A DNA stretch of 8,454 nt from Escherichia phage If1. Of the stretch, positions 2,161 through 8,432 are shown piece by piece; position 1 is the first letter of the stretch; every line of letters begins with the position of its first letter. The notes beneath the pieces were generated by a model that did no database searches, was not told the DNA's origin, and saw nothing but the letters and a program-made list of their open reading frames with translations. Position numbers and translations under genes: made by a program. The stretch is from sequence record NC_001954.1, one strand, 5' to 3'.

Positions 2161-2502
2161 ATGCCAGTTTTTCTGGGGCTTCCTGTTCTGGCAAGATTTA
2201 TTGGATGGCTTGCAGGTGCTCTTATTGCATACGTTGCAAAATTTTTCACATTGGGAATCGCCAGAATAGCACTTGCAATTTCGCTATTTCTTGGCCTTAT
2301 TATCGGTCTGAATGGATTGTTAGTTTCTTATCTTTCAGACCTTACTTCTGTATTGCCACCTGAAATTGCCAGCGCAGTCTCTTATGTTGTTCCGGCTAAT
2401 GCTGCGCCGTGTTTGTATGCGATTTTTTCTCTTAAAGCAGCAGTTTTTATTTTTGACGTTAAAGACAGAATTATAGGATATCTTGACTGGAATAAATCAT
2501 AA
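2161..2502 (+). CDS. VI: Gene VI minor coat protein
   Basis: 113 aa hydrophobic protein (MPVFLGLPVLARF...AISLFLGLIIGLN...YLDWNKS), collinear with M13 pVI. Stop TAA (2500-2502) shares one base with the gene I ATG (2502-2504). Confidence 0.9.
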   Translation: MPVFLGLPVLARFIGWLAGALIAYVAKFFTLGIARIALAISLFLGLIIGLNGLLVSYLSDLTSVLPPEIASAVSYVVPANAAPCLYAIFSLKAAVFIFDVKDRIIGYLDWNKS

Positions 2503-3563
2503 TGGCTGTATATGTCGTAACGGGAAAACTTGGTGCAGGTAAAACACTTGTCGCTGTCGGTAAAATCCAGGACAAAATTGTTTCTGGTTGCAGGGTGGCT
2601 ACGAATCTCGATTTGCGCATTCATAAGCTACCGAGAGTGGGTATATTTGCAAAGTCACCGGATGTAATACGGATACCTGATAAACCATCACTGGATGACT
2701 TACTGGCAATCGGGAGAGGCAATAATTCCTATGATGAAAATAAAAATGGATTACTGGTTCTTGATGAATGTGGGACATGGTTTAACTCACGCTCATGGGC
2801 TGATAAAGAAAGACAGTCCGTAATTAACTGGTTTTTACATGCCAGAAAACTGGGCTGGGATATTATTTTTCTTATTCAGGATTTATCCATCATGGATAAG
2901 CAAGCTCGTGTGGCACTGGCAGAGCATGTCGTTTATTGCCGACGCCTCGATAAAATCACAATTCCATTTATTGGCTCAATTTATAGTGTAATAACGGGAT
3001 CAAAACTTCCGCTACCAAAAGTACATGTCGGGATTGTTAAATATGGTGACTCTCCGCAGTCAATGACCGTAGAACGCTGGACTTATACGGGGCGTGACCT
3101 TTATGCCGCTTATGATACCAAACAGGCATTTTCAGATGCTTATGAGCATTCATCATTTTCATACCTGACACCATATCTTTCACATGGCAGGTATGCCGTA
3201 AAGAGGGACGCTACGTTTTATATGAGACTCACCAGAATCTATTTAAAGAAATATTCCAGAGTATTGTGCCTGTTTTGTGGTTTTGTATCAGCATTCACGT
3301 ACCTCAGTCTGTCCAAGCCGGAAGCGACACCTCAGATAAAACCAGTAACGACGCAGATTATCACATCCCGTTATAAACCATCAGAGTTGAGAATAACAAC
3401 ATCATATCGAATGGGAAATGCAGTTGGTTTTGAGTTTATGGATGCGAAGAAGCAAAAAATTGCATCTGACGATCTAATTAAAGACGGTTTTCGCATGGTC
3501 TATATAACACCTTGTTCGGTAGAGCTTATTAAGGATGGGAAACATGAAAAAGTTACTTGCTAG
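2502..3563 (+). CDS. I: Gene I assembly protein (Zot-like NTPase)
   Basis: 353 aa. Walker A GKLGAGKT near the N-terminus. Extensive collinearity with M13 pI (e.g. NGLLVLDECGTWFN, HARKLGWDIIFL, LTPYLSHGRY). Internal transmembrane segment (RVLCLFCGFVSAFTYLSL). Confidence 0.95.
   Translation: MAVYVVTGKLGAGKTLVAVGKIQDKIVSGCRVATNLDLRIHKLPRVGIFAKSPDVIRIPDKPSLDDLLAIGRGNNSYDENKNGLLVLDECGTWFNSRSWADKERQSVINWFLHARKLGWDIIFLIQDLSIMDKQARVALAEHVVYCRRLDKITIPFIGSIYSVITGSKLPLPKVHVGIVKYGDSPQSMTVERWTYTGRDLYAAYDTKQAFSDAYEHSSFSYLTPYLSHGRYAVKRDATFYMRLTRIYLKKYSRVLCLFCGFVSAFTYLSLSKPEATPQIKPVTTQIITSRYKPSELRITTSYRMGNAVGFEFMDAKKQKIASDDLIKDGFRMVYITPCSVELIKDGKHEKVTC
3222..3563 (+). CDS. XI: Gene XI product (in-frame internal start within gene I)
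   Basis: In-frame ATG at 3222 is codon 241 of gene I, the same relative position as the M13 pXI start (M13 ...KMKLTKIYLKK vs here ...YMRLTRIYLKK). Translation start not verifiable from sequence. Confidence 0.45.
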   Translation: MRLTRIYLKKYSRVLCLFCGFVSAFTYLSLSKPEATPQIKPVTTQIITSRYKPSELRITTSYRMGNAVGFEFMDAKKQKIASDDLIKDGFRMVYITPCSVELIKDGKHEKVTC

Positions 3564-4833
3564 TTTGCTTTGTGTATTGTCATTTCAGAGCTTTGCTATC
3601 CCTGTTGAACTGAATAATGCGCCAGTAAGGGAGTTTGTTTCATGGTATTCAAAAACAACCGGAAAGCCTGTGATTATTTCACCAGACGTAAAAGGGGAAA
3701 TTACGGTTTACTCAGCGGATGTCACCAAAGATGAACTGCCTCAGTTTTTTACTTCGGTTCTCCGGGCGAACGGTTTTGACCTCAGTCCGGGTAATCCTGC
3801 TGTGGTTCAAAAATTTAACCGTAATACGTATGAATATTCCGATTCTTTCTCAGAGCCGGTTCCGGCATCTTCTTATGATGGTGATGTTCCTCCTCCAACT
3901 GGAGACTTTTTCACTAAACCTGAGATACGTGCCAATTTGATTACTCAGACGTATCCGGTCAATAACGTCAGAGCAAAGGATCTCGCACCTGTTATTGATA
4001 TATTCCTGAAGGGGGAAAATATTGCTGGTACTAAAGTTTATCCTTTGATGGGGCGAATATTCTTGCTTGTAACGGCATCAGCATCACAACACAAAGAACT
4101 TGCAGCATTTTTTCCTTCTGTTGATGTGCCAAGAACTCAGGTTCTTGTTGAATCAGTCATTTTTGAAACAACGGCTTCCGATGGTTTTGATTTTTCATTT
4201 GCTGCGGGGGATCCTTCCGGCAGTCCGGTTGCGGGAGGGATCAATACTGACCGTCTCACGTCTGTTTTATCCAGCACTGGCGGTTCCTTTGGTATTTTTA
4301 ACGGGAACATTCTGGGGCTTAGCCTGAAAGCGCTTGAAACATCGAGTAAATCAACGCTTTTATCAATGCCACGCATTCTGACGATGTCAGGTCAACCAGG
4401 AACATTTACAGCAGGGCAAAATGTTCCTTTTGTGACGGGGCGGGTTACGGGAGAAGCTGCAAATGTTAACAATCCATTCCAGACGATCGAACGTCATGAT
4501 GTGGGGATCTCACTGAAGGTTGTTCCGGTCGTGACACCCGGAGGATTGTTAATCATGGATGTTTCGACAAATGCGGATAGTATTTCTGATTCGCAAACGG
4601 CTTCTGACATCATCACAAATACACGCTCAATTTCGACAACCGTTCAGCTAAAATCAGGCCAGACAGTTCTGCTTGGCGGGATGGTAGATAACAGGGAAAG
4701 CGACAGTGATTCATCTGTACCGTGGGTATCAAAAATTCCCTTAATTGGTGCGCTTTTCACGTCCAAAAGCTCAAATGCCAACAAGCGCACGCTGTACATT
4801 CTCATTCGCGCCCGCGTCGTTAACCTGCTTTAA
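3544..4833 (+). CDS. IV: Gene IV secretin (virion export channel)
   Basis: 429 aa from ATG 3544 (MKKLLASLLCVLSFQSFA signal peptide), with AAGGA at 3530-3534 upstream. The ORF track opens at 3535 (432 aa). Strong collinearity with M13 pIV, including the secretin C-domain (VPFVTGRVTGEAANVNNPFQTIERHDVGISLKV...SKIPLIGALF). Confidence 0.95.
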   Translation: MKKLLASLLCVLSFQSFAIPVELNNAPVREFVSWYSKTTGKPVIISPDVKGEITVYSADVTKDELPQFFTSVLRANGFDLSPGNPAVVQKFNRNTYEYSDSFSEPVPASSYDGDVPPPTGDFFTKPEIRANLITQTYPVNNVRAKDLAPVIDIFLKGENIAGTKVYPLMGRIFLLVTASASQHKELAAFFPSVDVPRTQVLVESVIFETTASDGFDFSFAAGDPSGSPVAGGINTDRLTSVLSSTGGSFGIFNGNILGLSLKALETSSKSTLLSMPRILTMSGQPGTFTAGQNVPFVTGRVTGEAANVNNPFQTIERHDVGISLKVVPVVTPGGLLIMDVSTNADSISDSQTASDIITNTRSISTTVQLKSGQTVLLGGMVDNRESDSDSSVPWVSKIPLIGALFTSKSSNANKRTLYILIRARVVNLL

Positions 4834-4929: not shown

Positions 4930-4947
4930 ATCCTGTTTTCACAGGAT
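4930..4947 (+). other. Stem-loop in the gene IV-proximal intergenic region (candidate packaging-signal or minus-strand-origin structure)
   Basis: ATCCTGT(4930-4936)-TTTC-ACAGGAT(4941-4947), a perfect 7-bp stem with a tetraloop and no following T-tract. Confidence 0.35.
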
Positions 4948-5060
4948 ATACAGTAAGACTCACATCATCATAAATACAAAGCGAGACGGGTATCGTAAGA
5001 GTTGCCATGTAGCATTTCCTTTGTGCTGTTGAATTTGTGGGTGCATTTGCACGCGAAGCG

Positions 5061-5118: not shown

Positions 5119-5310
5119 TTACTCGCTGGACTTGGTTGTGTGAATCAGATCCTTTTCTGTATCTTTTGCATAATTATCAATCAGATGATTAACGATATCA
5201 GTCCAAGTGATCGCACGTCCAGCGGTATGACTGGCATCGATCGCCAGCCGTTCGAGTTTTAGCTTTCGTTCAGCCACGATAGCCATAGTTGTTCGTTTTG
5301 GAGTTGCCAT
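5119..5310 (-). CDS. Small ribbon-helix-helix-like DNA-binding protein (putative regulator; function unknown)
   Basis: 63 aa from ATG (reverse complement of 5308-5310): MATPKRTTMAIVAERKLKLERLAIDASHTAGRAITWTDIVNHLIDNYAKDTEKDLIHTTKSSE. Short N-terminal beta-strand-like segment (RTTMAIV) followed by two predicted helices, as in the CopG/Arc/MetJ pattern. GGAAG lies 5 nt upstream of the ATG. The ORF track starts at an upstream TTG (5322). The only clearly antisense gene relative to the phage operons. Confidence 0.45.
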   Translation of the reverse strand: MATPKRTTMAIVAERKLKLERLAIDASHTAGRAITWTDIVNHLIDNYAKDTEKDLIHTTKSSE

Positions 5311-5329
5311 CTTAACTTCCAAAGGGTAC

Positions 5330-5379
5330 TCCCGCCGACATAAGGCGGGAGGGGAATTTGGACGGGCTTGAAAAGCCCG
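5330..5379 (+). repeat. Left-end subterminal hairpins of the IS (candidate TnpA recognition structures)
   Basis: Hairpin 1: TCCCGCC(5330-5336)-GACATAA-GGCGGGA(5344-5350). Hairpin 2: CGGGCTT(5363-5369)-GAA-AAGCCCG(5373-5379). They lie just downstream of the tnpA stop (5388-5390 on the minus strand) and are separated by a G-rich motif GGGAGGGGAA. Confidence 0.5.
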
Positions 5380-5387
5380 AAGGGTGA

Positions 5388-5768
5388 TCAGCCACGCTGA
5401 TGTTGAATGTATTGCCTAACAACTTCCAGCGGCGCACCTCCGCAGGAGCCAGCAAAGTATGACCTAGACCAGAGCACGGCTTTTCCGTATGCCCCCCGCA
5501 AATCAAGAAATTCGTTTCGCAGACGGCGGGATGTCACTGCTTTCAGTGAGTTAACCAGTACCGAAAGCTGCACTGTTGGTGGGTATTCGATCAGCATGTG
5601 GACATCATCGTACGTCTCCGTTACTTTCTTTAAGTTCCTCGCCCCAAAATCACGGCAGCACTTCTGCCTGCATACTGATGAAATGGCTGCACAGTGTAAC
5701 TCTCCCAGTATCTTTCGACGGTATTTTGTTACAAAGACGAAGATGAACATGCAAAAGGAAGGCAGCAT
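5388..5768 (-). CDS. tnpA: IS200/IS605-family Y1 (HuH) transposase TnpA
   Basis: 126 aa from ATG (reverse complement of 5766-5768); the track ORF opens at TTG 5831. Core motifs present: ...FVTKYRRK..., ...DDVHMLIEYPP... (HuH-region) and ...LWSRSYFAGSCGGAPLEVVRQYIQHQ (catalytic Tyr region). The first His of the HuH motif reads as Asp (D-V-H). Confidence 0.85.
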   Translation of the reverse strand: MLPSFCMFIFVFVTKYRRKILGELHCAAISSVCRQKCCRDFGARNLKKVTETYDDVHMLIEYPPTVQLSVLVNSLKAVTSRRLRNEFLDLRGAYGKAVLWSRSYFAGSCGGAPLEVVRQYIQHQRG

Positions 5769-5852
5769 GTCTTGAACGATTGATTTTATATTTTTGCATT
5801 GAGGTTGGCCGTAAAAGCAGTAATATTGCAAGAAAATCTAGCTACACACTGA

Positions 5853-6143
5853 ATGATGATGCTAATCCTGAAAGCCTACAAATTCAGACTGGAACCAACG
5901 CCTGAACAGTCGCAGCGTTTGCGGCAGTTATGCGGTTGCGCCCGTTTTGTCTGGAATTTAGGTCTTGCGGAGACAAAGCGCATACTTGACTCAGGCGAAA
6001 AGTTACCTTCGGCTTTCGAGTTGAACCGGAGTGATTACAGTGTGGAAAAAAATGCCGGAATACATCTTCTTACAGGATGCCTATACCGACAATCTGCAAC
6101 AAAAGCTGAAAGACCTGCATACCGCATGGAAACGTTGTTTTGA
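5853..6143 (+). CDS. tnpB: tnpB N-terminal fragment (frame 0), out of frame with the main tnpB body
   Basis: Starts ATGATGATG. MMMLILKAYKFRLEPTPEQSQRLRQLCGCARFVWNLGLAE matches the canonical TnpB/OrfB N-terminal signature (KAYKFRLxPTxEQ...GCARFVWN). Only about the first 60 aa look genuine; the rest of the frame runs to a stop at 6141-6143. Confidence 0.7.
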   Translation: MMMLILKAYKFRLEPTPEQSQRLRQLCGCARFVWNLGLAETKRILDSGEKLPSAFELNRSDYSVEKNAGIHLLTGCLYRQSATKAERPAYRMETLF

Positions 6144-7086
6144 TAAAAAGCTCGCAGCTAAGGCTCCGGTATGGAAACGAAAAAATGAGGGCAGAGACTC
6201 AATCCGTTTTGTGAACTTTGAGAAATATTGCTGCCTTGAAAATCGCAGAGTGAAGCTACCGTCAGGTCTTGGGTGGGTAAAATTCCGGCAATCTCAACGT
6301 GTGAACGGTAAAATCAAAAATGCGACAATCAGTCAGTTAGCGGGACAGTGGTATATCTCGTTTCAGGTTGAAATTGAAACGGCAGAACCAAATCACACAA
6401 GCACAACGATAGTCGGTCTGGATGCTGGCGTGGCTAAACTCGCCACGCTGTCAGATGGCACAGTCTTTGAACCTGTAAACAGTTTTCAGAAAAACCAGAA
6501 GAAGCTGGCGAGACTTCAGCGACAGTTAAGCCGCAAGGTCAAATTCAGCAACAACTGGCAGAAGCAGAAACGCAAAATACAGTGTCTGCATTCCCGTATC
6601 GCAAATATCCGCAGAGACTACCTTCATAAAGTCACAACGACCGTCAGCAAAAACCACGCAATGATAGTCATTGAGGATTTGAAGGTCAGCAACATGTCAA
6701 AGTCAGCAGCGGGTACGGTCAGCCAGCCGGGGCGCAATGTCCGGGCAAAATCAGGTTTAAACCGTTCGATACTGGATCAGGGCTGGTATGAAATGCGCCG
6801 CCAGCTTGAGTACAAACAGCTCTGGCGTGGAGGTCAGGTGCTTGCTGTTCCGCCAGCGTACACAAGCCAGCGTTGCGCGTGCTGTGGTCATACAGCGAAA
6901 GAAAACCGCCTGTCACAAAGTCAATTCAGATGCCAGGTATGTGGATATACAGCGAACGCCGATGTAAATGGCGCTCGTAACATTTTAGCGGCGGGGCACG
7001 CCGTACTTGCCTGTGGAGGGACGATGCAGTCAGACCGCCCGTTGAAGCAGGAACCAGACGCTGAGCAATCAGCCGTCACCCACTAA
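6031..7086 (+). CDS. tnpB: tnpB main body: RuvC-like, zinc-finger RNA-guided endonuclease (IS605 OrfB / OMEGA TnpB)
   Basis: 351 aa in frame +1 relative to the N-terminal fragment. RuvC-I (IVGLDAGV), RuvC-II (MIVIEDLKV), zinc finger (CACCGH...CQVCGY) and RuvC-III ([10 protein letters not shown]) all present. Frame opens just after TGA at 6022-6024, with first start-like codon GTG at 6031. Combined with the N-terminal fragment the protein would be about 410 aa. Confidence 0.85.
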
Positions 7087-7091
7087 TGGGA

Positions 7092-7132
7092 ATCCCCCTC
7101 CTGAGTCACGAAGTGCGAAGGTGGGGGAGGAT
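7092..7132 (+). repeat. Right-end imperfect palindrome / G-rich motif of the IS (candidate RE structure and omega-RNA scaffold 3' region)
   Basis: ATCCCCCTCC (7092-7101) ... GGTGGGGGAGGAT (7120-7132), 6-13 nt after the tnpB stop. It can form an imperfect stem with bulges. It resembles the left-end motif GGCGGGAGGGGAA at 5344-5356. Confidence 0.4.
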
Positions 7133-7140
7133 GTCAATCC

Positions 7141-7315
7141 ACACCTCAGTAGTTTTCTGCTGGCATAAAGCTAAACACTTATGCTCTCCAGTCGTATTCT
7201 GCCGTCATTATAGTTAAACACTTATGCGCTCATATCATTATGCTTGTATACATGCGTAATGCGTGATAGATTTTTGTCATTTCGTAACTGCATACATGTA
7301 TAGGGTGAGTGTTCA
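7141..7315 (+). promoter_or_regulatory. Gene II-proximal intergenic region: candidate plus-strand origin, gene II promoter and operator
   Basis: AT-rich. 13-bp direct repeat TAAACACTTATGC at 7172-7184 and 7215-7227. Palindromes TGTATACA (7245-7252) and ATACATGTAT (7292-7301). Possible -35 TTGTCA (7274-7279). SD-like GGGTGAG before the ATG at 7316. Same position as the plus-strand origin and gene II promoter in Ff phages. Confidence 0.45.
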
Positions 7316-7537
7316 ATGTTTTTTGACTGGCTGACTATTGAACAGGATTTTGGCTTTCAGCTACCGATTTTGAGTGATGTTGCCTATCAGCGCATCCACC
7401 TCGAAAGCGGGGAAGCGTCAGCTCTGAGTCAGCCAACTTTTCAGCACAAAGGATCTTTTTGTGATGGTTGTTTCGATCTCTATCCGAGGCTCATTGCTGA
7501 AAGTCTCTGGAAATCCTTCCCGGTGGGGGCGTCTTGA
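7316..7537 (+). CDS. II: Gene II replication initiator, N-terminal segment (frame 2), ahead of an apparent frameshift
   Basis: MFFDWLTIEQDFGFQLPILSDVAYQRIHLESGEASALSQPTFQHKGSF... Start and N-terminal pattern resemble M13 pII (MIDMLVLRLPF...). The genuine part probably ends at F48 (7457-7459); the track ORF continues out of frame to 7537. Confidence 0.7.
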   Translation: MFFDWLTIEQDFGFQLPILSDVAYQRIHLESGEASALSQPTFQHKGSFCDGCFDLYPRLIAESLWKSFPVGAS

Positions 7538-8432
7538 TAATTTATTTGGCCTTCCAACTTTGGATTCCTGTGTATCGGTTTTCAATACGATCCTTGCTGA
7601 AATAGGTTTACCTCAGTTTACGAAATGTAAGAGGCTTATGCCCGGCCAGGCAAAAGAGAATGAGAAAGCACCTCTTGTTGCTGACGGTGCAATTATTAAA
7701 GAAGTACATATCACCTCGAACAGGGCGGCAGGTAAGGGGAATGAAGATGACTATATTTCAGGTTTATCTACGCAACCCTACAGGAACAGCGTTCCACGGC
7801 TACACTCCAATGGAAAATCCGTTGACTGGCTGTCTAAAAAAGGCAATGTAAACCTCATATATCCAACGGTTTACAATAAAGCTCATGAAATGGAACTCCA
7901 TTCTTTGACAAAGATAAAGAATCGTTTTTCCGAACAATCTCGGGAATACAATTACCTACTCGATATTATATCTTTCTGCAAAGAGAATGGGGTCGTAAGG
8001 TTTGAGCAAAAGCTGAAATCCAGATTTTTGCAAAAGAATGCGCTCAATTACTGGGGGCTTTCTGATTATTCCATTTTAAATAAGTTACATTCTGATTTTC
8101 TTGAACTTGATAAAAAGTTATCGGTGAATGCTATGGACTTTGAAACTATCAGTGATCATCTTGTAAGTAGTGGGGTTGTTGAAACCACCCGTGCAGCAAA
8201 TACTACCGCAATGTATGCAATACAGTGGTTTCACGGTCATGTATTTGACTTCAACAAAAAACAGGTTCAGACACATCGGGCGCGGTTACGAAAAATTGGT
8301 ATCGACATTGCGCAGAAATGCAATGTTTCTAAATTCTCTCCTGTGATTGTGAAACAAACACGGGAAATTAAGGTGCAGGAGTGCGTTGCACCATCATGGT
8401 ATGTACGTCCGTCACATTTACGCGTTGCATAG
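7461..8432 (+). CDS. II: Gene II replication initiator (rolling-circle nickase), main body (frame 0)
   Basis: 323 aa. SISIRGSLLKVSGNPSRWG aligns with M13 pII CVEIKASPAKVLQGHNVFG, and RFEQKLKSRFLQKNAL with M13 RFEARIKTRYLKSF. Stop TAG at 8430-8432. Frame opens after TGA at 7425-7427. Confidence 0.9.
   Translation: MMVVSISIRGSLLKVSGNPSRWGRLDNLFGLPTLDSCVSVFNTILAEIGLPQFTKCKRLMPGQAKENEKAPLVADGAIIKEVHITSNRAAGKGNEDDYISGLSTQPYRNSVPRLHSNGKSVDWLSKKGNVNLIYPTVYNKAHEMELHSLTKIKNRFSEQSREYNYLLDIISFCKENGVVRFEQKLKSRFLQKNALNYWGLSDYSILNKLHSDFLELDKKLSVNAMDFETISDHLVSSGVVETTRAANTTAMYAIQWFHGHVFDFNKKQVQTHRARLRKIGIDIAQKCNVSKFSPVIVKQTREIKVQECVAPSWYVRPSHLRVA
8133..8432 (+). CDS. X: Gene X product (in-frame internal start within gene II)
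   Basis: In-frame ATG at 8133 (MDFETISDHL...) preceded by GGTGA at 8123-8127. 99 aa. Same relative position and size as M13 pX (111 aa). Confidence 0.5.
   Translation: MDFETISDHLVSSGVVETTRAANTTAMYAIQWFHGHVFDFNKKQVQTHRARLRKIGIDIAQKCNVSKFSPVIVKQTREIKVQECVAPSWYVRPSHLRVA

What the first reader, a model, noticed from the sequence alone, without database searches (positions are those of the whole stretch)
7428..7537. Apparent +1 frameshift in the essential replication gene II at a T5 run
The gene II N-terminus (7316 onward) is in frame 2 and the conserved body is in frame 0 (open from 7428). The sequence GGA TCT TTT T GTG ATG GTT around 7451-7469 contains a T5 run at 7456-7460. Removing one T gives a continuous ORF (...QHKGSFVMVVSISIRGSLLKVSG...) of about 371 aa that aligns with M13 pII. 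Gene II is required for rolling-circle replication, so a true frameshift would imply a defective genome, a programmed +1 frameshift, or that the gene X-sized C-terminal product alone is made. A homopolymer sequencing error is the simplest explanation.
Basis: seen in the sequence. Interest (0 to 1): 0.6.

Follow-up and report, generated by a model that had tools for sequence, protein, structure and literature searches.

The report
One spurious G splits If1 replication gene
The apparent frameshift in the replication gene of filamentous phage If1 is almost certainly a one-base error in the old deposited sequence (a G written twice at 7466/7467, not an extra T in the T5 run), so it is a database correction and not new biology.

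Summary
The window is the deposited 8454-nt genome of Escherichia phage If1. The two-frame layout is real in this sequence. The replication gene starts at 7316 in one frame, that frame stops at 7537, and the conserved body runs to 8432 in the next frame, open from 7428.

The lesion is not at the T5 run. Ten modern chromosomal copies, one viral contig and three metagenome places carry the same gene. They differ from the window by 0 substitutions and a single base over 1116 nt: GATGTTG in place of GATGGTTG. All of them keep T5.

Deleting G7466 gives a 371-aa protein (…GSFCDVVSISIRG…) that exists exactly on 135 public contigs. Only the If1 record has the GG form.

The record carries other single-base errors of the same kind:
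- 9 extra bases in its IS200/IS605 element.
- A −T/+T pair that scrambles a conserved pIV motif.
- A missing C at 5053.

The modern copies show no single-base indels among themselves.

Verdict: a record artefact, either a sequencing or a cloning error. The deposited ORF320 (Swiss-Prot O80302) lacks 49 conserved N-terminal residues. Programmed frameshifting is not supported. Interest is low.

The parts
7316..8432 (+). Replication initiator gene (gene II/X family) of phage If1. It is 1117 nt as deposited and 1116 nt (371 codons plus stop) once one G is removed.
   Evidence: Window minus G7466 is identical over 1116/1116 nt to the gene in L005-L014. The exact 371-aa protein P0001 is on 135 contigs. 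Pfam G2P_X_C scores 2.7e-25 and Phage_CRI 4.1e-5. TIGR01629 scores 29.2 bits. phrog_702 scores 6e-107.
7466..7467 (+). GG doublet, of which one G is spurious. This is the true site of the frame change.
   Evidence: This is the only gap in alignments with 10 modern loci, with a UViG and with 3 metagenome places, all of which have the single-G form. More distant relatives L002-L004 place the gap at the same spot.
7456..7460 (+). T5 run. It is in frame (TCT TTT TGT = S F C), is a genuine part of the gene, and is not the lesion.
   Evidence: T5 is present unchanged in all modern copies. Relatives have TCTTTCTGT coding the same S F C.
7316..7537 (+). 73-aa ORF as deposited. Codons 1-50 are the true N-terminus of the replication protein. 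Codons 51-73 (GCFDLYPRLIAESLWKSFPVGAS) are out-of-frame read-through created by the extra G.
   Evidence: Residues 1-50 are conserved in relatives down to 42% identity, with invariant D4, L6, Q10, P17, D21, E33 and S47. Residues after 50 in this frame match nothing.
7464..8432 (+). Deposited 'ORF320' / If1p10 / Swiss-Prot O80302 (322 aa, ATG 7464; an alternative GTG lies at 7461). It is an N-terminally truncated annotation. Its start codon is in frame with the body only because of the extra G.
   Evidence: An exact look-up names the 322-aa sequence as ORF320 of Escherichia phage If1, on a contig of 8454 nt. In the corrected gene, GTG and ATG are out of frame.
8133..8432 (+). Candidate gene X-like internal in-frame ORF (99 aa, ATG preceded by GGTGA) covering the G2P_X_C domain.
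   Evidence: Sequence context is. The identical 99-aa protein P0008 was called in an E. coli record. The Pfam G2P_X_C domain covers residues 282-366. Expression was not tested.

Best explanation
The frameshift is an error in the deposited If1 sequence, not a property of the phage. One G at 7466/7467 was entered twice, either through a gel or base-calling misread or through a mutation in the clone that was sequenced. The real gene is one uninterrupted 371-codon frame. It encodes a rolling-circle replication initiator of the filamentous-phage gene II/X family. In analogy with Ff pII, this protein is expected to nick the plus-strand origin to start replication. The annotators could not see the N-terminus in frame, so they called the longest downstream ORF from ATG 7464 ('ORF320'). 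That truncated protein entered RefSeq and Swiss-Prot.

Shown: the position and identity of the extra base, its uniqueness to this one record, and the presence of other single-base errors in the same record. Inferred: that the base is absent from the physical phage DNA.
For: (1) Window 7316-8432 compared with ten modern prophage copies from seven assemblies shows 0 substitutions and 1 gap, the G. Window minus G7466 equals the modern gene exactly.
(2) The corrected protein is found letter for letter on 135 contigs.
(3) A pattern that accepts either form found the GG form only in the If1 record itself (L016 is identical to the window). The single-G form was found in a UViG and in 3 metagenome places.
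(4) More distant relatives at 42-83% protein identity all encode the N-terminus and the body in one frame, and the 49 N-terminal residues are conserved.
(5) The record is demonstrably error-prone in this way. Its IS200/IS605 copy has 2 substitutions but 9 extra bases against a plasmid copy, which splits tnpB and alters tnpA. Gene IV has a -T (4044) / +T (4067) pair that turns the conserved FDGANILAV (M13: IDGSNLLVV) into LMGRIFLLV. A C is missing at 5053.
(6) Baseline: modern copies differ from each other by 0 substitutions and 0 single-base indels over about 6.8 kb. The window has 4 private substitutions and 4 private single-base indels on the same backbone.
(7) The AlphaFold model puts residues 2-11 in a confident beta-strand (pLDDT 86), which a product starting at residue 50 would lack.
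(8) Established knowledge: If1 is a plaque-forming phage, and gene II function is essential for filamentous-phage replication.
Against: No independent sequence of the If1 isolate itself was available; the phage collection holds no near-identical record. The absence of the G from physical If1 DNA is therefore inferred from near-identical prophages and from the record's error pattern, not observed. Most IS errors cluster at 5606-5841, so the error rate is uneven, and a single error at 7466 is not predicted by a uniform rate. A decent Shine-Dalgarno-like AAGGA (7449-7453) precedes GTG 7461 and ATG 7464, so a truncated product could in principle be made if the G were real.
Confidence: 0.9

Rival explanations
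1. The extra G is a genuine, very recent mutation in the If1 stock or in the cloned replicative form that was sequenced. The phage would then either be defective, or survive on an N-terminally truncated initiator made by initiation at GTG 7461 or ATG 7464.
For: AAGGA at 7449-7453 lies 7 nt before GTG 7461 and 10 nt before ATG 7464. The 322-323-aa ORF retains both Pfam domains. Zero substitutions in the gene fit a very recent event as well as they fit an error.
Against: The missing 49 residues are conserved to 42% identity and include seven invariant positions. They also contain a confidently predicted beta-strand. No other sequence anywhere has the GG form. The same record has at least 12 other private single-base indels, including one pair that scrambles a conserved pIV motif. 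A real-mutation reading would need all of these to be real in a viable phage.
Confidence: 0.06
2. Programmed +1 ribosomal frameshifting: ribosomes slip on UUU-U within the T5 run to join the two frames, giving ...GSFVMVV....
For: tRNA-Phe on UUU (7457-7459) could re-pair with UUU at 7458-7460. By chance the layout AGGA-UCU-UUU-U resembles the prfB site (Shine-Dalgarno-like element, 3-nt spacer, slippery codon), seen in the sequence; the prfB comparison rests on established knowledge.
Against: The two-frame structure is not conserved in any relative. The same AGGATCTTTTTGT sequence occurs in all single-frame modern copies, where a +1 slip would be harmful. The next 0-frame codon is a sense codon (UGU), not a stop. 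There is no downstream RNA structure (z = +0.66) and no Rfam match. The predicted VM-containing protein is absent from 15 billion sequences.
Confidence: 0.02
3. One reading: a homopolymer miscount, with T5 deposited where the truth is T4.
For: Deleting one T also restores a 371-codon frame, and homopolymers are common sites of error.
Against: All modern copies identical to If1 have T5 and lack the G. Relatives code S F C D at this spot. The T-deleted protein is not in the collection, whereas the G-deleted one is, on 135 contigs.
Confidence: 0.01

Closest known systems
Replication protein of If1-like dif-integrated prophages of Enterobacteriaceae (P0001; e.g. BBW46034.1, 'phage/plasmid replication domain-containing protein')
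   Same: Identical in all 371 residues and all 1116 nucleotides once G7466 is removed. The gene order is the same: rep, then the gene V-like, VII, VIII, III, VI, I and IV genes.
   Different: The deposited If1 record has one extra G. If1 also lacks a 2559-nt regulatory/attP block and carries an IS.
Ff (M13/fd/f1) gene II protein pII and gene X protein
   Same: Same Pfam families (Phage_CRI N-terminal domain, G2P_X_C C-terminal domain) and the TIGR01629 II/X family. Same position just upstream of the ssDNA-binding protein gene. A possible in-frame internal X-like start.
   Different: Homology is very remote: 23% identity over 272 profile columns, hhalign probability 63%, and a BLASTP match of only 28 residues. 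The first ~60 residues cannot be aligned. tblastn at E <= 1e-5 finds no Ff, IKe or I2-2 record.
prfB (RF2) type programmed +1 frameshift
   Same: A superficial layout of Shine-Dalgarno-like AGGA, a 3-nt spacer and a U-rich slippery codon at 7450-7460.
   Different: There is no in-frame stop or hungry codon, no conservation of a two-frame gene, and the same motif sits in intact single-frame genes.

Membership tests
Filamentous-phage replication initiator, gene II/X family (Pfam PF05144 + PF05155; TIGR01629) | C-terminal G2P_X_C domain above Pfam gathering score | tested here: met
   89.2 bits against a cut-off of 25, residues 282-366.
Filamentous-phage replication initiator, gene II/X family (Pfam PF05144 + PF05155; TIGR01629) | N-terminal Phage_CRI (G2P N-terminal) domain above gathering score | tested here: met
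   23.8 bits against a cut-off of 21.7, which is marginal; residues 57-245. TIGR01629 scores 29.2 against 29. hhalign to M13 pII gives E = 6.8e-5 and probability 63%.
Filamentous-phage replication initiator, gene II/X family (Pfam PF05144 + PF05155; TIGR01629) | Gene lies immediately upstream of the ssDNA-binding protein gene in an inovirus genome | tested here: met
   rep ends at 8432. The 96-aa gene V-like ORF starts at window 1, on what is a circular genome, and sits 22 nt after rep in the prophages.
Filamentous-phage replication initiator, gene II/X family (Pfam PF05144 + PF05155; TIGR01629) | In-frame internal start giving a gene X protein | tested here: inconclusive
   ATG 8133 is preceded by GGTGA and would give 99 aa covering G2P_X_C. 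The same 99-aa ORF was called once in a public record. There are no expression data.
Filamentous-phage replication initiator, gene II/X family (Pfam PF05144 + PF05155; TIGR01629) | Site-specific nicking of the plus-strand origin | not testable with these tools
   This needs biochemistry. There is no solved relative by sequence and no significant fold match.
Programmed +1 ribosomal frameshift site | Two-frame gene structure conserved in relatives | tested here: not met
   All relatives from 42% to 100% identity have a single frame. The GG form was found only in the If1 record.
Programmed +1 ribosomal frameshift site | Slippery codon followed by a stop or rare codon in the 0 frame | tested here: not met
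   At the true lesion the sequence is GAU GGU, which is not slippery. At T5 the codons are UUU UGU, where the following codon is a sense codon.
Programmed +1 ribosomal frameshift site | Stimulatory element (upstream Shine-Dalgarno-like sequence or downstream structure) | tested here: inconclusive
   AAGGA lies 3 nt upstream of UUU, but it is equally present in intact genes. The downstream 100 nt fold no better than shuffled sequence, z = +0.66. There is no Rfam hit.
Sequence-record artefact (base-call or cloning error) | Difference is private to one record among otherwise identical independent sequences | tested here: met
   1 gap and 0 substitutions against 10 loci. The single-G form is also found in 4 further independent contig places.
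Sequence-record artefact (base-call or cloning error) | The same record shows other implausible single-base indels | tested here: met
   9 extra bases in the IS. A -T/+T pair in gene IV breaks a motif conserved with M13 pIV. A C is missing at 5053. Modern copies show 0 single-base indels among themselves.
Sequence-record artefact (base-call or cloning error) | Re-sequencing of the same isolate lacks the base | not testable with these tools
   No second If1 sequence exists in the collections searched.

The most novel reading that the evidence does not exclude
The sequenced If1 lineage really carries the extra G and still replicates. It would do so either through low-level +1 slippage at the prfB-like AGGA-N3-UUU-U motif (7450-7460), giving a full-length initiator with VM in place of CD, or through initiation at GTG 7461 / ATG 7464, giving an initiator that works without its conserved 49-residue N-terminus.
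Probability: 0.03. Interest if true: 0.5.

Novelty: not a real feature. Interest (0 to 1): 0.1.

Why it matters
As biology it does not matter, because the replication gene of If1 is an ordinary intact gene. As curation it has some value. The reference If1 genome carries a one-base error that truncates its replication protein by 49 conserved residues in RefSeq (If1p10) and Swiss-Prot (O80302). That truncated entry is used as the reference homologue in the literature, for example for Alteromonas phage phiAFP1 (PMC9769780). The same comparison flags about a dozen more single-base errors in the record, in gene IV, tnpA, tnpB and an intergenic site. It also supplies the corrected sequence directly from modern assemblies.

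Tried and rejected
- DNA search of the rep region against the phage collection found no near-identical phage record. It gave only a 62-nt match at 85.5% identity, so no independent If1 sequence was available.
- E. coli complete genomes hold only 75-77% identical relatives of the gene. These were useful for placing the gap but are not identical copies.
- The scan of genome contigs, which holds one genome per species, found no exact match to the junction pattern. The viral and metagenome scans did.
- RNA folding of 7440-7540 showed no unusual structure. The Rfam scan of the whole window gave no hits. The promoter and terminator scan of 7100-7600 gave nothing relevant to the junction.
- The PDB sequence search gave no hits. 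Foldseek against the PDB gave nothing at E <= 0.001, only weak TBP-like matches, so the fold class of the initiator was not settled.
The alignment was shallow at 8 sequences, so the model is only moderately confident (mean pLDDT 74). I did not inspect which strands the N-terminal strand pairs with.
- Literature searches found no paper discussing the If1 gene II frameshift or If1's relation to dif-integrated prophages. The library does not cover subscription journals.
- A dN/dS test on the N-terminal segment was considered and dropped, because there are zero substitutions against the modern copies.

Full report
**What the window is.** The ORF list shows a complete filamentous-phage gene set: a gene V-like ORF at 1-291, the major coat gene at 484-708, gene III at 776-2158, gene VI at 2161-2502, gene I at 2502-3563 and gene IV at 3535-4833. 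An IS200/IS605 element and a replication gene at 7316-8432 complete it. An exact-sequence look-up identifies the 322-aa ORF starting at ATG 7464 as 'ORF320 / If1p10 / O80302, Replication-associated protein G2P' of Escherichia phage If1, on a contig of 8454 nt. The IMG/VR contig L016 is identical to the window.

**Checking the observation.** The ATG ORF at 7316 runs in one frame to a stop at 7535-7537 (73 aa). The next frame is open from 7428 and continues to 8432. A T5 run lies at 7456-7460. The described layout is therefore real. It is not a chance pattern, because the joined protein matches relatives over 99-100% of its length in single tblastn pieces and covers the whole PHROG 702 profile at E = 6e-107.

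**Where the frame actually changes.** I aligned the window with E. coli prophage relatives at 75-77% nucleotide identity (L002-L004). The relatives read GGC TCT TTC TGT GAT GTT GTC TCG, which is G S F C D V V S. The window reads GGA TCT TTT TGT GAT GGT TGT. The T5 run is in frame and codes S F C. The single alignment gap falls in the GG at 7466/7467.

The exact look-up then showed that the G-deleted protein (…QHKGSFCDVVSISIRG…, 371 aa) exists letter for letter in public data on 135 contigs, named as a multispecies Enterobacteriaceae replication protein.

I fetched ten places that encode this protein, from seven assemblies. Over the whole gene the window differs from each by 0 substitutions and exactly one gap. 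Window minus G7466 equals the modern gene at 1116 of 1116 positions.

**Is the two-frame form shared by anything?** I scanned the viral, metagenome and species-representative genome collections with a pattern that accepts either GATGTTG or GATGNTTG. The results were:
- One independent viral contig with the single-G form.
- Three metagenome places with the single-G form.
- Nothing in the representative genomes.
- One 42-nt match, the GG form, which is the If1 record itself.

Distant relatives (Alteromonas phiAFP1, Dulem virus 55, Pseudomonas WX_Y and 36-2, phage silverpheasant213; 42-53% identity) all encode the N-terminus and the body in one frame. The 49 residues upstream of the junction are conserved, with invariant D4, L6, Q10, P17, D21, E33 and S47.

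**Is the record error-prone?** There are three internal controls.
- *The IS element.* The IS200/IS605 element (5311-7137) differs from a copy on an IncI-type plasmid by 2 substitutions and 9 extra bases. All nine are on the window side. They split tnpB at 6031 and distort tnpA.
- *Gene IV.* The window lacks a T at 4044 and has an extra T at 4067. The 8 residues in between read LMGRIFLL. The modern sequence reads FDGANILA, which matches the M13 pIV motif IDGSNLLV.
- *The baseline.* Modern copies from different assemblies and metagenomes differ from each other by 0 substitutions and 0 single-base indels over about 6.8 kb; only the copy number of the gene III glycine-rich repeat varies. The window has 4 private substitutions and 4 private single-base indels on the same backbone.

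A ratio of single-base indels to substitutions of 1:1 on the backbone, and about 4:1 in the IS, is what manual sequence reading produces and is not what evolution produces. Four of the eleven extra bases, including G7466, duplicate a neighbouring base.

**Rivals.**
- *A genuine recent mutation* cannot be formally excluded without re-sequencing If1. It would require a viable phage to tolerate loss of a conserved N-terminal segment that the AlphaFold model places in a confident beta-strand (residues 2-11, pLDDT 86). It would also require the dozen other private indels to be real.
- *Programmed +1 frameshifting* has one point in its favour. The layout AGGA-UCU-UUU-U superficially resembles the prfB site. 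However, the same motif sits in every intact single-frame copy, the following codon is a sense codon, there is no downstream structure and no Rfam match, and no relative has two frames.
- *The T5-miscount version* is refuted by the modern copies, which keep T5.

**What the gene is.** The corrected protein passes the Pfam gathering scores for G2P_X_C (89 bits) and, marginally, for Phage_CRI (23.8 against 21.7). It also passes TIGR01629 rep_II_X (29.2 against 29). Against M13 pII itself, BLASTP finds only a 28-residue match around GxVRFExxxKxRxL. A profile comparison aligns residues 61-365 to pII 89-405 at 23% identity and 63% probability. It is therefore a remote member of the gene II/X family, not a close homologue of Ff, IKe or I2-2 pII. 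None of those appear in the tblastn search at E <= 1e-5. No solved structure is related by sequence or significantly by fold. An X-like in-frame start at 8133 (99 aa) is plausible but untested.

**Verdict.** The feature is an artefact of the deposited record and is of low scientific interest. It has practical value as a correction to the reference genome and to the Swiss-Prot entry, which the literature uses as the reference homologue.

**Side observations.** If1 is essentially identical to prophages integrated at the chromosomal dif site of Enterobacteriaceae, often as tandem copies. Relative to them, If1 lacks a 2559-nt block that holds the dif-like attP and several regulator-like genes. If1 also carries the IS inserted exactly at the start codon of a 63-aa divergent ORF. 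The closest copy of the IS lies on an IncI-type conjugative plasmid, the plasmid class whose pili If1 uses. These points were not part of the finding and were only partly followed up.

Noticed in passing
window 5311-7137: An IS200/IS605-family element (tnpA on the minus strand, tnpB on the plus strand) is inserted between the phage's intergenic region and the rep promoter region. As deposited it has 9 extra bases (5611, 5639-5640, 5659, 5668, 5686, 5739, 5841, 6031) and 2 substitutions against a modern copy, which splits tnpB into 96-aa and 351-aa ORFs. The closest copy (L001/L026) is on an IncI-gamma/K1, MPF_I conjugative plasmid, the plasmid class whose pili If1 uses. This suggests the IS hopped from the host's plasmid into the phage.
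   Followed up: partly
window 4930-4932 junction; L005 16092-18650: If1 is near-identical to prophages found as single or tandem (2-3 copy) insertions at chromosomal dif in Enterobacteriaceae. attR is a perfect 28/28 E. coli dif site, and attP is GGTGCGCATAATGTTCCACACGTTATGTTGAAA. If1 lacks a 2559-nt block containing this attP, a HicB-like gene, an HTH gene and three unknown genes. If1 therefore looks like a non-integrating deletion derivative of a XerCD/dif-integrating phage. No paper stating this was found.
   Followed up: partly
window 4044 and 4067 (gene IV): A compensating missing T and extra T, 23 nt apart, make the deposited pIV read VYPLMGRIFLLVT. Modern copies read VYPFDGANILAVT and M13 pIV reads VLSIDGSNLLVVS. 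This is a second probable read error in an essential gene.
   Followed up: yes
window 5119-5310 (minus strand): A 63-aa ORF (MATPKRTTMAIV...), divergent from rep, is conserved in the prophages. In If1 the IS sits immediately upstream of its ATG (plus-strand CAT at 5308-5310), separating it from its upstream region. It has no Pfam match.
   Followed up: partly
window 5053; 976, 5156, 5160, 7282: One missing C (5053) and four substitutions are private to the deposited record relative to all modern copies. Whether they are errors or true differences is not resolved.
   Followed up: no
window ~1649 and 1945-1950 (gene III): The copy number of a 9-nt glycine-rich repeat (GGGTCAGGC) differs by 27-36 nt between If1 and the prophages, and also among the prophages (gene III products of 467-485 aa). 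There is also an in-frame 6-nt indel. This looks like genuine length variation in the pIII linker.
   Followed up: no
L002 1512-2626 (E. coli UTME-13 chromosome): A modern E. coli prophage relative (77% identity) has its own replication gene annotated as two CDSs (762 and 360 nt) that overlap at a different position. This is either a real pseudogene or an assembly error, and it is unrelated to the If1 site.
   Followed up: no
window 8133-8432: A possible gene X equivalent: an in-frame ATG preceded by GGTGA, giving a 99-aa product that covers the G2P_X_C domain. The same 99-aa ORF was called in one public E. coli record.
   Followed up: partly
L005-L014, L015, L017-L019: The prophage backbone (~6.8 kb) is 100% identical across assemblies attributed to several genera (the source names list Salmonella, Citrobacter, Enterobacter and E. 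coli) and across metagenomes. This implies very recent horizontal spread of this inovirus.
   Followed up: no
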